NCBI GenBank assembly: GCA_002256025.1
Contig: NKIB01014304.1
Coordinates: forward strand, 1-45,173
Direction: 5' to 3'
Length of the DNA stretch: 45,173 bases
From: Asterionella formosa
Taxonomy: Eukaryota
Shown: one piece after another, positions 4,804 to 42,070 of the stretch
Layout: each line of letters opens with the position of its first letter
Position numbering within the stretch: the first letter of the stretch is position 1
Made by a program: the position numbers and the translations under genes
Notes under the pieces: model-generated
Told to the model about the DNA's origin: nothing
What the model saw: only the letters and a program-made list of their open reading frames with translations
Database searches by the model: none

Positions 4804-6795
4804 ATGAAGTCCATATATTCATGGAACAAACGGCGGTTACTGCTACTGCTACTCCTACAGTTTTCCATTATTATGAGAGCATGGACGGTGGTTGCATTTG
4901 TATTCCAACACCCTAGTAAAATACCTGCTTTTGTCACTACCAAGAACAAGAATCTGTTATTCGTTTCTGTCGTTGGTCCAGAAGATGAGTATGAGTTTGA
5001 ACCAGATGATGCTGCCTTGGCTGAGTTAGAACAGGTGGATGTATTGGCCATTGAAGGAGACGAGATTGATACTGACGTGGCGGAAGAGGAAGAGGAATTG
5101 ATTTTAATGGAAGAAGTAGAACTGGATGAAGAAGAAGTCGAAGACATTGTTGTAGACGAGCTTGGTGAAGAAGAGATTGAAGCTGAGTTTGAAGAAATTC
5201 TGGAAGATGACGAACTTATTGAAGAGGAGGAAGAGGAGGAAGACGAGGAGGAATATGATTACATGGAAGGGCCACGAATGGACGAAAAAGCAAGGAAATT
5301 ACCATTCTGGGATGAAGAGGAGCAAGGAGACTATGAACTTCAAGATGATGATGATCCCAACTACACCAAGCAAAAGGAACTATTGGAAGCGAACGAGGCA
5401 CGGTTTCAGGAGCAGCAAAAGATCAACAACTTTGATCCCATTGATTACATGATCAACGACATGCCTAGAGAAGAACGCGAAAAATTGCGGGCACTACCCA
5501 TTATGAAACAAGTGAATGCAAAAATGAAGGACATGACTCTGACGGAGGAGGACCTGGAAGGTGTGTCCAGCTGGGAGGACATTGATGCCAAATATAAGGA
5601 TTCTCTGTCGGAAGAGCAGCCGTGGGTGATGAATGATGAAGATAGAGATGAATTGGATAAGATGGCTGGAATGAAAAATGAAGATATACAAGAACTAGAA
5701 GAGTCTTGGAGTAATATTCAGGCAATAAAGGGCCTAGCTGACCCGAATCAGGTTAATGACATTCAACGTGAGTTGACGGAGCATGAACTTCTAGAAATAG
5801 GTTCGGTTCTGGTCGAAATAAGTGGTGCGGCGTACAACTGTACCGAATACTTGATTTACGATTTGGATTTCAATGTCACGAACCTTATTCTGGCCGCCAT
5901 TCAACACAATCCCCAGGCACCCGTTATCTTCACACATTGGTACCCTCAATTGATTACTATGGATCGATATGCTAGTGTCAGAGAAGCCGGCTTTGACTGG
6001 TCCTGGGACGACGTACAGGGGGCGGATATTAGCGAATTGGAACGATACTACGCGGGACTGGGATATACAGAAATTCCCAGCAAGAATCCAATCGACACAG
6101 GCATTATTACATTGGACGATTTGGATGAAGACGAAATTAAAATGGCGTCAATGGAGCGCTGGATGACAGATGTCTATAACTCAGAATGGGATCGCAAGGA
6201 CTTTGACGACGATGATATCAAAGATGAAGATAACGTCTTTTCAAATAGCTTTGAAATGCCGCTTCATCCAGACAAACCATTGATTCAAGATGCATTGGAG
6301 GATGTTCGCCGCTGGAATATGGAAATGGATTATGAAAATGGAATTGGAGAAGACAATGAGTTGTCAGAAGACGAAAGGGAGTACAGAGAGATGCTTGGCA
6401 AGGAAATTAAGTATGACTATGATCATGATCCGGAGTTCGAAGAGCAGTTTCGTGGCCATGTCGTTGTGGCTTGTACCGGTGACGATTCCGATCTGGAGAT
6501 CGCAGAAAAGATTACTCTAGCGCTGACAGGAAAGTTTGGGAAGCAAGTGTTTGTTGAGACCCGCGTGATAACTCATGCAAGAGAGGAAGATAATGTGTTT
6601 GAAGTCTGGATTGAGTCATATGATGTGGAGCTGTTGCATTCCAAGAAGCGAGCGACGACAGGTACAAGCGGCTGGACTGGACCTGCGGACTGTGATGACG
6701 AGCAAATTGATTATCTGGTGGATCGAGTCGGCTTTTTGATAAGTGATGACGCCCGATACAGTTACAAGTACGAAGTGCAAATGGAAGGAGTTTAA
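4804..6795 (+). CDS. Very acidic (D/E-rich) hypothetical protein with a putative signal peptide and plastid-type transit motif
   Basis: Single ~663-codon ORF from ATG 4804. It has a hydrophobic leader (LLLLLLLQFSIIMRAWTVVA-FVF) resembling the diatom ASAFAP cleavage motif, long poly-E/D tracts, and a more complex C-terminal region. No family recognised. Confidence 0.8.
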   Translation: MKSIYSWNKRRLLLLLLLQFSIIMRAWTVVAFVFQHPSKIPAFVTTKNKNLLFVSVVGPEDEYEFEPDDAALAELEQVDVLAIEGDEIDTDVAEEEEELILMEEVELDEEEVEDIVVDELGEEEIEAEFEEILEDDELIEEEEEEEDEEEYDYMEGPRMDEKARKLPFWDEEEQGDYELQDDDDPNYTKQKELLEANEARFQEQQKINNFDPIDYMINDMPREEREKLRALPIMKQVNAKMKDMTLTEEDLEGVSSWEDIDAKYKDSLSEEQPWVMNDEDRDELDKMAGMKNEDIQELEESWSNIQAIKGLADPNQVNDIQRELTEHELLEIGSVLVEISGAAYNCTEYLIYDLDFNVTNLILAAIQHNPQAPVIFTHWYPQLITMDRYASVREAGFDWSWDDVQGADISELERYYAGLGYTEIPSKNPIDTGIITLDDLDEDEIKMASMERWMTDVYNSEWDRKDFDDDDIKDEDNVFSNSFEMPLHPDKPLIQDALEDVRRWNMEMDYENGIGEDNELSEDEREYREMLGKEIKYDYDHDPEFEEQFRGHVVVACTGDDSDLEIAEKITLALTGKFGKQVFVETRVITHAREEDNVFEVWIESYDVELLHSKKRATTGTSGWTGPADCDDEQIDYLVDRVGFLISDDARYSYKYEVQMEGV

Positions 6796-37220: not shown

Positions 37221-38234
37221 AGTGACGAGTAACCTGGATTGTCGCGGAATGAAAGCGAGTCTCAAAGACAGCGGGAAGGTAGAATGAACGGCCGACACGA
37301 AGAACAAAACCAACAACGTCAACAAGAGTGCTACTCTAGAAACTCTACTACCGGTACCGGTATTTGTATATCAGTGTGATGCGTAGAATAATGCTTACTG
37401 CTATACCGGTATAGTCTTGCCAAATGTTTTTACCTTGTTGTATTTTATATTTGCAAGTACCAGTATTGCTTATTTTACACATGGTATTGCACAATTACAG
37501 CATATCAACATCAAGGAGCAAAATTGCTGGTAAAGCCGAATGATGGTGAGGAGAGACGCACAGCATGAGTTGTACTTCCACGCGGCGGATTGAATCTAAA
37601 TCTGTTCCTCAAGGCAGTACCAGGTACCAATTATCATAACTATAGATATGTAAGCATACCGTACTATTTGTAAGGCCACCACGACCCCACCTCAGCTGAT
37701 GCTGTACGTACTGCATGATGGCATGATGATATATATTTTTATGTATTGTTAATCTACCGGTACCGGTACTGGTAATACCGGTACCGTAGTCCCTTTATTT
37801 AATGCAAACATAACTACCAGTACATATTATTATCATAAATGAATGATGAGGCGACGATAGGAAATGCTTGAAATCATTGCATGTGTGTTAGGGCCAATCT
37901 GCTTAACAGAGATACAAAAATCAAAAAAATGTTGCTTGGCCCAATTTTTTGTATCTCACATATCCGGGTGATATGTTTCTTCCAGCGACACATTTTTTGT
38001 TGCTCCGAAATGTGTATCTGTGTGTATCGCTACAGATATAGCGTTAAGCAACTCTAATTTTATAAATTTAATAAATGTTATGTAATTAAATTAATCAACA
38101 AAGACACCTTTTTTATCTCTAGTAACGGCAACAAAAGAAATGAATTTTGGGAGGAGGGATGCTCAGCAGCAATTATTATTATCTCTAGCTACTCATGGAC
38201 TAATGCTTTTCATCACTTGTAAACGAATTGCGCA

Positions 38235-38890
38235 ATGGCATCATTTGAATCTTTGGACAATGAAACTTACTCTGCAGCAAGAAAACAGGATGACCAGTGG
38301 GTTACAAGCATCACTCCTGCTGAGTTTTTCATTGGCAACGAAGGGTCTTTAAGGACCATAAAAGACATGCTCACTCAACAGATATCGCTACAACAACTTT
38401 GTTGTATTTGTGTTCACTTTAAAATCGCCGGATACAGAAACAAAACAAAGATGATAATGATTACACTCATTAAGAATTGGTTAAAGACTCTGCCTTGATA
38501 TTTGAGACATGATGGCTGGGGTACAACAAAAATTCATCAAAAGAACCAAAGAAGTATCTGAAAAGAAACGGAGCTCCCTTTACTCCTGAATCATCAACAA
38601 GGTTTTCTCCTTGCCTAAAGAAGTATCTGAAAAGAAAAGGCTCTCCCTTTACTCCTGAATCATCAACAAGGAAGTCTCCTTGCCTAATACTATCAAAGCA
38701 ACTTTCTACTACCAGAGAAGATATTGCCAATGACTCAAGTACAGATTCCGAATTATCTCCTTCCCAATTGTCTGCATTTCCATCTCCAGTTCCTGCTGAT
38801 ATTTTATTGGATGACGATTCTAAAAGATCCCACCAGATTATTAAGAAACAGGCCAAGAATCAGAGGAAAAGGAATGCTGCAACTGCTCCC
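38235..38890 (+). pseudogene. 5' part of the Harbinger accessory ORF (position of the Myb/SANT-type gene), with a 69-bp tandem duplication
   Basis: ORF 38235..38498 continues in degraded frames to the capture junction and faces the transposase remnant. AAGAAGTATCTGAAAAGAAA... is duplicated at about 38549 and 38618. No Myb motif was confidently seen. Confidence 0.4.
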
Positions 38891-38892
38891 AA

Positions 38893-39460
38893 ATTCATGC
38901 CGGCTGTACAGCAATCGTGGCAGTTATCATTGGACATACAATAACTGATGCAAATGCTGGGGATTCCCGAGCTGTCCTTTGTAGGGCGGGTGGAAAGACG
39001 GAAGCATTAAGTTTCGACCACTAAGCACAGCAAGATCGAGAAATGGATAGAATTCACAAGGCTGGTCGATTTGTCAACCAATTCGGGCGTGTGAATGGAA
39101 ACTTGAACCTTTCTTGATCCATTGGTGATCATCTGAAATATAAACAAGTTCCTGGAACTCCCCCGCCAATAGGACAAATGATTACAGCGGAACCCGATAT
39201 TGTTTAGGTGATTCTGCATCCAAATGACGAATTCATTATTTTGGGTTGTGATGGTATTTGGGATTGCCTCACTAACGAACAGGCGGTAAAATACGTGAGA
39301 GAGCGAACTGACACCAAGACGCCAGCCAGTAGAGATTGGAATTGAGATGCTAGATGAAATCATTAGTGAAGATCCTCGATCTACCCAACAAGGTATTGGC
39401 GGAGATAACATGATGATTATGGTTATTGATTTGCAACCGCAGCAACGAGCCTACCGGTGA
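38893..39460 (+). pseudogene. Captured 3' fragment of a protein phosphatase 2C (PPM-family) gene
   Basis: IHAGCTAIVAV...ANAGDSRAVLCR...LSFDH*...GRVNGNLNLS*SIGD...ITAEPDI...FIILGCDGIWDCLTNEQAV...GIGGDNM...RAYR*. Three in-frame stops and a frameshift. Confidence 0.92.
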
Positions 39461-39581
39461 AAACTCTATAATTAAAAGTCTCAGTAAGGTAAAAAATGTC
39501 ATTATATTTGTCGAATCATTTCTGACAACAGCTGCATGCAGCAGGTAAGAACCCAATAGTATAGGGTTGGGCAACCGTTTT

Positions 39582-39835
39582 TTAAGGATTCAGACGCTTG
39601 GGGTCACGAGGGAACCAGGCTGCCTTTCGAATGTTAGGCAGCCCTAAAAATAGCATAACGACACGCTCGAGTCCAATACCTCCGCCACCATGGGGAAGAG
39701 CACCATTACGGAACGAGATCACATAATCCTGAATCGCCGATACATCGATTCCCCATGCTTTGGCCCGCTCTTCCAACAAGTCTGGGTCATGAACACGCTG
39801 AGCCCCCGACAAAATTTCTCGTCCACAAATGATGT
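39582..39835 (-). pseudogene. DARS: Captured 3' fragment of a cytosolic aspartyl-tRNA synthetase gene
   Basis: [11 protein letters not shown]...[43 protein letters not shown] is class II motif 3 and the eukaryotic AspRS C-terminus. It is fused directly to the transposase remnant and has no upstream exons. Confidence 0.92.
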
Positions 39836-40119
39836 GATGGAAGGTCGAAGGAGTTCCAGTAGTTGATTGAAAGGTTCAAGAGACATGCGATATTCACGAT
39901 GAAATCTATTCTCATGAAGAAGCTTTGTGACATGCTCATTCCAGTCAATTCGTTGATGCTCCCATTTTGGAATTCGCACTGGCTTTGAGTTTCGTTCATA
40001 GGACTCCAAAAATGATAAAATGTAACTGCTGCAATTAACAAAAAGCTTTGTTGTTCCGCTTCTTTATCAAGATTGTCAATGACATTCCAACTGTCAGGTT
40101 CTTCCGGTCGATTTGTCAT
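39836..40119 (-). pseudogene. N-terminal remnant of a Harbinger transposase
   Basis: MTNRPEE...(frameshift)...[39 protein letters not shown] contains the F..xRMS..xF..L..LL motif of PIF/Harbinger transposases. The DDE core is absent. Confidence 0.75.
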
Positions 40120-40597
40120 TGTCGTTACAGTAATGATAATGGTCAGACACGTTGAATGATTGAAGCTCACATTGCAATTTTTTTTGTTGAGTCTGATGCA
40201 CATGTTTGCAGAGACATAAAGAAAACGGCTAACTGTTTTACCGTTACAGAGATATATTTGTGAAATTTATCTCTGTAAAGATTCATTTTTCTGAAGATAC
40301 AACAAAAAATAATTTGTATCTCTGGTAAGATTGGCCCTTAGTGCAGAAAGCATTGTTGGATAAACATGAAAATATAAATATGGTATACATATACGATGTG
40401 TACCGGTACTATGTGTAGAAAAGGACAGGTGATCTGCTGTCCCAGTGCTTCATGTAAATGGTGATGGTCAAGAAAGCTAACCAGCAGATGCTATTCAATA
40501 GATTAAGTCTTTGATGTGGGCATAAAGTTAACATCTGGTTATACTGGCTGTTTATGATTGTACCATGCCATTGGCAAACATTGATTACTTTCTAATA

Positions 40598-41596
40598 TTA
40601 TTTCAAAACTGTCCCGTTTTCCTGGGTTACTGCAGGTAACAGGTCGAATCTCGGAATATTGCGCACAAATATTAGGTCGTCTGTGTCTCCATGGGCAACA
40701 ACGTAGACTTTGTATAATTCATATCCATGAGACTGCATGTGTTTGATGATCTTTTCCTTCTTGCCCACTTGGCTAGGATAGCGTCTTGCCAATAGCTGCT
40801 CAATTTGTACCACTCGCACATCAAATTCATCCCAGGGAAAGTCATGTACAACTTCAACCTCATTTCCCTCTGTATCTATTGTCATGTAATCAACTCTGTA
40901 CATGTCCCTCTTACGCAACTCATCAGCCAAATTGTAGCACTTGATCGAAGTTTCTTCCCTCTTATGAACCAATCTAGTTTCTTCATATTGCTTCAATGAT
41001 CCAGAGAACCCTTCAATATTGCTGAGTAAGACTGTTATATTGCTCACTCCAGCTGGACATACTGCTCCTTTGAAAATGAAAGAACCAGGGCGATTGCTCT
41101 CGAGGTGTTCATACTCTCGTGGGTCCAACTCAAACAGGAGGCCCTTCCATCCCATGTATTGTTCAAATGCAAAAGTGTTTGAATGATCAATACCATTTCG
41201 TGCCCCAAATTCAACAAAAATTCCTTTGCAACAGAGGTCTTGCTGGAAAAATAGTCGATCAAAGAGAAACTTGTCCTGACCAGATTGGGCATTCCACGTG
41301 GCAGGCATGGTGCACTGACATGAGGTTGATATTGTTTCATTGAAAGGAGCTTTTGTAGCAGCAGATTCATCCTTTGCGCTCTTCACTTTAACACTATTAA
41401 TATTGGGAGGCGGAGGCGGAGGTGGAGGAGGAGATTTCAACGACGAGAAGCGCATTGAGGATGCCAGTAGAGCCATGGATAGCAGTAAGAATATTGGGGC
41501 TGCTGCGAAAACAGTTGCACGACGTCGTGTCTTTGGAGGGGTCTGCAGCAGCAGTTGCTGCTGTTGTTTCGTGAGGAGGCTGCAACAAGTCCTCAT
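40598..41596 (-). CDS. FkbM-family (Methyltransf_21) SAM-dependent methyltransferase, type II membrane topology
   Basis: AQSGQDKFL, FVEFGARNGIDHSNT...WKGLLFE and VDYMTIDTEGNE...VVQIE motifs. An N-terminal hydrophobic anchor is followed by a poly-Pro stem. Confidence 0.88.
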   Translation of the reverse strand: MRTCCSLLTKQQQQLLLQTPPKTRRRATVFAAAPIFLLLSMALLASSMRFSSLKSPPPPPPPPPNINSVKVKSAKDESAATKAPFNETISTSCQCTMPATWNAQSGQDKFLFDRLFFQQDLCCKGIFVEFGARNGIDHSNTFAFEQYMGWKGLLFELDPREYEHLESNRPGSFIFKGAVCPAGVSNITVLLSNIEGFSGSLKQYEETRLVHKREETSIKCYNLADELRKRDMYRVDYMTIDTEGNEVEVVHDFPWDEFDVRVVQIEQLLARRYPSQVGKKEKIIKHMQSHGYELYKVYVVAHGDTDDLIFVRNIPRFDLLPAVTQENGTVLK

Positions 41597-42070
41597 CGTG
41601 ATGACCTTGGATAATATAAAAAAAGGTCAATGCCGTGGTAGATTTTTGGAACATATTATCGTTGTTCGTACATTTGTGCAATTGCAAAACGTACACAGTA
41701 TTGATATTAGCAAAAATGTATACAGTACTAACTAGGTACTGTTCATGTTAACCTGTTATGGGTACCAGTACCGTACCACTTCAAAACTGTAAGAAGCCAC
41801 CGCTCAACGGAGGAAACGCACGGATTGAACTTAATTTGGAAGATACGTTAATTATTGTCACGAAGGAGTTGTTCAGATTTATATAGCGAGTAAATACGTA
41901 CCTACCGGTACTTGTATTGTTGCATTGTGTAAGTTGTTAATTACTTATTACGGCCCAAAGGTGGCTGTCGACGCGAAATTGCGAAAAATGGAAATTTTCA
42001 TTTTTACTCTATTGAGCTGGCATCGTCTTTTCTACACGCACGTGCACATGTATAGGGACAAAAATATTAA

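What the first reader, a model, noticed from the sequence alone, without database searches (positions are those of the whole stretch)
37891..40337. Pack-type PIF/Harbinger element that captured the convergent 3' ends of two housekeeping genes (PP2C and AspRS)
Seen: both TIRs and a TTA TSD, with the 5' stubs of the element's two convergent ORFs at either side. Between them lies a ~940-bp block (about 38893-39835) with a PP2C C-terminus (+), ~120 bp of intergenic DNA and an AspRS C-terminus (-), tail to tail. Established: Harbinger elements have TWA TSDs and two genes; Pack-type gene capture is well known for plant MULE and CACTA elements. Inference: one contiguous genomic DNA segment, not an mRNA, replaced the element's centre, probably by template switching during gap repair. 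Each captured 3' end lies in the same sense as the element ORF it follows, so both element promoters could drive chimeric, convergent transcripts with host terminators. I do not know of this being described for a diatom Harbinger.
Basis: partly seen in the sequence, partly recalled or inferred. Interest (0 to 1): 0.8.

Follow-up and report, generated by a model that had tools for sequence, protein, structure and literature searches.

The report
Diatom transposon carrying two gene tails
A broken jumping gene in a diatom swapped its middle for the facing tail ends of two neighbouring host genes and then multiplied, a kind of gene capture known from plants; the original host genes may also have been left with a mutational scar over the copied stretch.

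Summary
Confirmed. Window 37891-40337 is a non-autonomous PIF/Harbinger element (TTA duplication, TIRs). A 940-bp host block, 38893-39832, replaced the 2-kb centre of a 3.5-kb parent. The intact donor, PP2C and AspRS tail to tail, lies on contig C12371; the pair is also adjacent in other diatoms. One capture was followed by transposition to about 12 sites with the same junctions. The cargo decays neutrally and both fusions are out of frame, so no chimeric protein is expected. One lake metatranscriptome holds a junction contig from an unidentified copy, not shown to be this one. Pack-PIFs are known in maize and rice; my searches found no diatom case in print, but this scan reported the same family four times at other copies. 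New here: the donor lost 13 of 26 synonymous CpG positions in the captured part, against one gain and about 10% per transposon copy. That may be a scar of methylation guided in trans (about 40%); position effects and general AT drift are not excluded. A sister element holds a second, independent capture, from a PPR gene.

The parts
37888..37890 (.). left target-site duplication TTA
37891..37918 (+). left TIR (3-nt insertion private to this copy)
38235..38894 (+). 5' stub of the parent's ORF1 (accessory gene), frameshifted; cut just at the start of its conserved helical domain
   Evidence: tblastn to P0025/P0001; domain limits
38548..38685 (+). 69-bp tandem duplication within ORF1, polymorphic in the family
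38893..38894 (.). left junction, 2-nt microhomology shared by parent and donor
38893..39832 (.). captured host block, 93% to donor G000:C12371:4936-5862
38893..39460 (+). 3' part of PP2C (about 184 codons; 3 stops before a frameshift in this copy)
39461..39581 (.). 121-bp intergenic spacer, same length as at the donor
39582..39832 (-). 3' part of cytosolic-type AspRS (last 82 codons, open in this copy)
39833..40119 (-). 5' stub of the Harbinger transposase (about 95 codons, frameshifted, no DDE domain)
40244..40278 (.). subterminal hairpin (z = -7.0); a sister copy took up a PPR-gene fragment in its loop
40313..40337 (-). right TIR
40338..40340 (.). right target-site duplication TTA

Best explanation
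A Pack-type, non-autonomous PIF/Harbinger element. Shown: one 3.5-kb parent copy lost about 2 kb of its centre and gained 927 bp from the PP2C/AspRS locus in one event; the hybrid kept both ends, was moved in trans to about 12 sites in more than one round, and is now decaying neutrally with both fusions out of frame. Inferred: the capture came from repair of a break or gap in the element with a template switch onto the donor locus and back (gap-filling or FoSTeST type). Inferred: the copies are mostly silenced junk whose only likely effect is RNA homologous to the two host genes.
For: Donor on C12371 matches only the cargo, no arm sequence in its 7.9 kb, and has intact PP2C and AspRS; it is the only intact close AspRS among 26 matches. 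PP2C lies tail to tail with AspRS in 7 other diatom-like loci of 79 fetched, six of them within 78-387 bp. Non-cargo sisters break at the same element positions 1004 and 1943 and hold a centre of about 2 kb with DDE_Tnp_4. Same junctions in all displayed cargo copies; cargo versus non-cargo split has 98% support on both arms, 99% on the right arm (9 cargo, 16 non-cargo). Perfect 3-bp TSD in 5 of 6 cargo copies with both ends. Shared indels define sub-lineages. Copy-specific changes: 0.0369 non-synonymous, 0.0354 synonymous per site; PP2C frame whole in 1 of 11 copies. A second filler-type capture in a hairpin loop of a sister shows that this family repairs breaks with ectopic host DNA.
Against: Two bases of microhomology at one junction and none at the other are within chance. 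The left arm alone does not resolve the cargo clade. No founder copy near the donor is seen, and contigs are too short to test linkage. No intact autonomous copy was found among the sisters fetched, so the source of transposase is inferred.
Confidence: 0.85

Rival explanations
1. Paired-insertion route: two copies inserted in or around the PP2C/AspRS pair, lost their inner ends by deletion, and moved as one element with the DNA between them.
For: This is the model proposed for Pack-PIF and other Pack-TYPE elements (PMC8903248, section 9). The final structure would look the same.
Against: It needs two insertions plus two deletions ending inside two coding exons; the arms are colinear and non-overlapping, as in a single deletion derivative; no element remnant lies in the donor contig.
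Confidence: 0.12
2. Capture from RNA: a PP2C transcript that ran on through the spacer into AspRS served as the repair template.
For: The block holds no intron and starts 25 bp after the last PP2C intron; an RNA contig runs across both genes (X11 record 1).
Against: No poly(A) at either junction; it needs 250 nt of read-through into AspRS coding sequence; a contig across two genes does not show one transcript.
Confidence: 0.06
3. The family is retained because it makes a useful chimeric RNA or protein.
For: One copy (C15063) keeps the captured PP2C frame open; a junction contig is present in one metatranscriptome; the C7729 copy gained an in-frame ORF1-PP2C join by a later 4-nt duplication.
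Against: dN equals dS; the C7729 join ends after about 75 PP2C codons; the original junctions are out of frame; no copy contig among the 2 laid from RNA run X11.
Confidence: 0.05

Closest known systems
Pack-PIF elements of maize and rice (Pack-TYPE transposons; PMC8903248, passages and section 9 read)
   Same: Non-autonomous PIF/Harbinger with TTA/TAA TSD, host coding DNA inside, amplified as a family.
   Different: Diatom host; 2.4-kb element that keeps 5' stubs of both parent genes; one block covering two convergent genes and their spacer; parent, donor and both junctions resolved.
Multicopy Pack-TIRs of animals, FoSTeST and gap-filling models (PMC8277862, passages read)
   Same: Template-switch junctions with short microhomology (median 2 bp there), followed by transposition to distant sites.
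   Different: The word Harbinger does not occur in that paper's main text; here the capture replaced more than half of the parent, whereas gaps in single-copy Pack-TIRs had a median of 4.6% of the element.
Epigenetic conflict at maize donor genes (bioRxiv 10.1101/777037, passages read)
   Same: Predicts siRNA and methylation confined to the captured part of an important donor gene.
   Different: There methylation was measured; here only a sequence-level CpG loss is seen. 'CpG' and 'deamination' do not occur in its main text.
Ectocarpus Harbinger elements (PMC12477816, passages read)
   Same: Stramenopile Harbingers with two tail-to-tail genes and TNA target duplications.
   Different: No host-gene capture by Harbingers in the passages seen; only giant elements of other superfamilies are likened to Pack-MULEs.

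Membership tests
PIF/Harbinger superfamily | 3-bp TWA (TNA) target-site duplication | tested here: met
   TTA/TTA here; 5 of 6 cargo copies and 4 of 10 non-cargo copies with both ends matched, two of these TGA. Definition: PMC13668399, PMC12477816.
PIF/Harbinger superfamily | terminal inverted repeats | tested here: met
   83 motif matches, control 0
PIF/Harbinger superfamily | DDE transposase (DDE_Tnp_4) in the parent | tested here: met
   PF13359 in 3 of 3 minus-strand parent pieces; the window keeps only its N-terminal stub
PIF/Harbinger superfamily | second gene with a Myb/SANT-like (MADF, trihelix) domain | tested here: inconclusive
   A second, convergent ORF exists. No Myb/SANT Pfam hit in 64 homologues. 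A confident model of the conserved domain of a 40%-identical homologue (pLDDT 90.6) ranks Sap1 (Z 5.8, rmsd 4.5, 98 aligned), GT-1 (5.2, 4.6, 78), NgTRF (4.9, 4.2, 74) and Zeste (4.2, 3.3, 68) first: right class, low scores. Atlas hits to Myb clusters at 0.79-0.80 are leads only.
Pack-TYPE / Pack-TIR elements | host gene DNA between the TIRs with an identifiable intact donor | tested here: met
Pack-TYPE / Pack-TIR elements | non-autonomous, yet mobilised with its cargo | tested here: met
   No DDE domain; 17 cargo-bearing contigs, about 12 sites after collapsing shared flanks, each with its own TSD
Pack-TYPE / Pack-TIR elements | present-day mobility | not testable with these tools
   Copies are 1.8-5.4% from their majority state; no intact parent seen
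Epigenetic conflict at donor genes | methylation and small RNAs confined to the captured part of the donor | not testable with these tools
   Only the indirect CpG-loss signal was measured

The most novel reading that the evidence does not exclude
After the capture, silencing aimed at the dozen Pack copies also methylated the matching stretch of the two host genes. Deamination, perhaps helped by selection to shed methylation targets, then stripped half of the CpGs that could be lost without changing the proteins, only within the captured part. The copies act as a frozen snapshot of the donor, so this would be a sequence-level record of transposon-host epigenetic conflict in a diatom, and evidence for homology-guided methylation in trans there. 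The two inward-facing element promoters could supply RNA from both strands.
Probability: 0.4. Interest if true: 0.68.

Novelty: new member of a known kind. Interest (0 to 1): 0.45.

Why it matters
It extends Pack-type capture by Harbingers to diatoms with an unusually complete record: parent, donor, both junctions, amplification and a second capture in the same family. The family also makes an open question testable in a diatom: whether small RNAs from transposons direct methylation of homologous host genes in trans. The prediction is a methylation and small-RNA block with sharp edges at donor positions 4936 and 5862. Without that result it is an ordinary Pack element in an unusual host.

Tried and rejected
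Misassembly and two separate captures: rejected. Frame-preserving selection on the cargo: 3-nt insertions dominate there (12 of 18) but also in the parent centre (35 of 78) and are common in the non-coding end (8 of 25), so this is a mutational bias. A nested element at the capture point (L066, 4.3 kb near parent position 1012) looked like a trigger; the same element sits at other positions in other sisters, so I drew nothing from it. Hairpins at the two cargo junctions: none (z 0.83 and 0.25). Bacterial promoter scan: irrelevant and at chance level. Polarising the CpG changes with the related lineage in runs X16/X17 largely failed: X17 record 11 has exactly the 9 differences of the copies' majority, so these contigs are probably collapsed paths that hide that lineage's own donor; 130 rows were not shown. 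A close outgroup was sought in metagenome contigs; the best full AspRS was 88% in amino acids, too far. Gene conversion from one copy as the source of the donor's changes: no copy shares more than 5 of the 37 donor-side letters. The PPR capture cannot serve as a CpG control (one copy, no polarity). Foldseek gave no match for ORF1, and the whole-protein search was filled by its coiled coil. A first TSD tally was faulty because of fuzzy matching and was redone. Runs X21-X24 held next to none of the words and were not used.

Full report
Observation. The element runs from 37891 to 40337 between two TTA triplets, with TIRs at both ends. Its centre holds a PP2C C-terminus on the plus strand and an AspRS C-terminus on the minus strand (Pfam), with 121 bp between the stops. 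The window is contig C14304 of a 68.4-Mb assembly. The named close relatives of its AspRS are diatoms.

Donor. The cargo search gave 18 candidate contigs, all scored. One, C12371, matches element positions 1003-1942 only (93%) and has no arm sequence in its 7,869 bases. It carries an intact, spliced PP2C and an intact AspRS, tail to tail. The captured block is C12371:4936-5862, equal to window 38893-39832. It is the only intact close AspRS among 26 matches; the next paralogue is 56% identical. Among 79 metagenome loci fetched with AspRS, 7 others carry PP2C tail to tail, six within 78-387 bp and one at 2.2 kb; many of the rest are too short or too distant to tell. The adjacency is therefore old, and one capture explains the block.

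Parent. The left arm had 201 first-look candidates and the right arm 171; 40 of each were scored. Sisters without cargo break from the window's element at positions 1004 and 1943 and hold about 2.0 kb between them. That centre completes a minus-strand DDE_Tnp_4 transposase and a plus-strand ORF1. ORF1's conserved domain models well and its best fold matches are Myb/trihelix-type DNA-binding domains, at low Z. I fetched about 60 family stretches; those with both ends were mostly deletion derivatives or held nested insertions, and none had two intact genes.

One capture, then amplification. Seventeen contigs carry cargo besides the donor. Two pairs share flanks exactly, C9426 and C6191 share a flanking repeat and an insertion, and three short contigs are nearly identical, which leaves about 12 insertions. 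The left junction is the same in 13 of 13 displayed copies and the right in 11 of 11: two bases of microhomology on the left, none on the right. On the arms, 9 cargo copies separate from 16 non-cargo copies with 98% support; the right arm alone gives 99%, the left arm alone does not resolve them. Five of 6 complete cargo copies have a perfect 3-bp TSD. Shared indels show later rounds of transposition. The related lineage in runs X16 and X17, about 1.6% away in AspRS, also holds the junctions, so the capture predates that split.

Function. ORF1 runs out of frame into PP2C and stops after 16 codons; the transposase stub also enters AspRS out of frame. Copy-specific changes are neutral: 245 non-synonymous (0.0369 per site) and 72 synonymous (0.0354) over 13 copies. 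CpG transitions run at 10.9% against 1.6% at other G/C sites, as expected for methylated repeats (CG methylation of diatom transposons: bioRxiv 10.1101/2021.06.11.447926, three passages). The PP2C frame is whole in 1 of 11 copies.

Transcription. Four of 24 listed runs were laid on the donor, all as contigs. RNA run X11 gave 2 contigs, both donor. Metatranscriptome X7 gave a contig with the right junction (depth 85.6) and an adjoining copy-type contig (86.6) whose 3-nt insertion is in none of the 17 cargo loci I hold. The mean depth of the first bin equals that expected if the donor intron has no cover, so DNA carry-over looks low. A second X7 contig has the insertion of the window's sub-lineage but 19 substitutions, against 15 for this copy. 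So some copy is probably transcribed across the transposase/AspRS junction; strand, level and promoter are unknown, it is one study, and the left junction was not among the RNA rows shown.

CpG loss at the donor, for. The donor differs from the copies' majority at 37 of 927 sites, mostly synonymous (dS 0.116, dN 0.013). Of 26 CpG positions where a transition is silent, the donor has lost 13 (PP2C 10 of 18, AspRS 3 of 8), with one silent change the other way (p = 0.002). The count holds for three choices of copies. Copies lost 29 of 276, the most decayed 9 of 26. Other silent G/C sites changed at 5 of 83. Silent CpG state is 14 of 79 in the captured donor part, 86 of 220 in the uncaptured parts (p = 0.0005) and 26 of 77 in the copies' majority. 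No single copy explains the donor's letters. This is what methylation confined to the captured part would leave, as measured in maize (bioRxiv 10.1101/777037, passages); small RNAs cover methylated transposons and some genes in Phaeodactylum (PMC4247016, passages).

CpG loss at the donor, against. Five of 46 background frames are as low in their last 265 codons, including an ordinary gene, and 3' ends are lower in general (0.29 against 0.35). In 13 other AspRS genes the last 82 codons pool at 0.33 against 0.43 upstream, so the static contrast is partly positional. Non-CpG silent changes also lean from G/C to A/T (5 against 1), and 4 of the 12 listed differences to the related lineage in uncaptured AspRS are CpG transitions (12 of 23-24 shown), so some genome-wide drift exists. 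The related lineage could not polarise most sites. A donor losing CpGs faster than the transposons themselves needs an extra factor, such as longer exposure or selection. It is one locus. I put this reading at 0.4.

Second capture. A truncated sister on C316 holds 276 bp, 93% identical to the 5' part of a PPR gene on C255, plus 25 nt of filler, in the loop of the right subterminal hairpin. It is single-copy and fits gap filling at a fragile site.

Known or new. Pack-PIFs are described in maize and rice (PMC8903248; passages and section 9), and multicopy Pack-TIRs with 2-bp microhomology in animals (PMC8277862; passages). Searches for a diatom case and for CpG loss in donor genes listed none; I judged from listings and from passages of PMC12477816, PMC5861414, PMC13668399 and bioRxiv 10.1101/2023.01.02.522487 and part 1 of 6 of PMC13317346. 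The library lacks most subscription papers, and I read no supplements; repeat libraries could already list this family. This scan noted the same family at four other copies; a word search for the CpG reading found nothing.

Verdict. A real and well-resolved Pack-Harbinger, a new member of a known kind. The CpG signal at the donor is the part worth following up. Interest 0.45.

Noticed in passing
L083:3629-3938 (G000:C316:15428-15737); donor L126 (G000:C255:22062-22333): Independent single-copy capture of 276 bp of a PPR gene in the subterminal hairpin loop of a sister Harbinger.
   Followed up: partly
L048:1154-1357 (G000:C2195:17753-17956): 204-bp SINE-like insert with a tRNA-like head (Rfam tRNA 25.4 bits, below the 29-bit cut-off; ARAGORN none) and a 19-bp target duplication; 592 first-look candidates in the genome, 40 scored.
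   Followed up: partly
whole family, e.g. window 37899-37901 and the cargo: Short 3-nt tandem insertions dominate the insertion spectrum of neutral DNA in this family, coding or not.
   Followed up: partly
G000, many contig ends (e.g. C191:6-449): A second, much younger Harbinger family: dozens of equal-scoring transposase hits at 53% identity that break the assembly.
   Followed up: no
L066:2766-7058, also L076, L103, L078, L025, L010, L093: An unclassified repeat of up to 4.3 kb without long ORFs is nested repeatedly in this Harbinger family.
   Followed up: no
L009 (G000:C6191) and L007 (G000:C9426): One cargo copy sits in the centre of a 141-bp inverted repeat; a related copy shares that flank.
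   Followed up: no
L104 (G000:C7729): A later 4-nt duplication put ORF1 in frame with PP2C; the join ends after about 75 PP2C codons and is in the protein collection as P0019 or a close allele (94%).
   Followed up: yes
window 40598-41626 (-): FkbM-type methyltransferase gene 260 bp from the element also has a low silent-CpG fraction (13 of 77), possibly from methylation spreading.
   Followed up: no
L045:389-1455: Decayed frames that look like a retrotransposon gag (my recall; no Pfam hit for the one piece tested) lie about 2.2 kb upstream of the donor PP2C.
   Followed up: no
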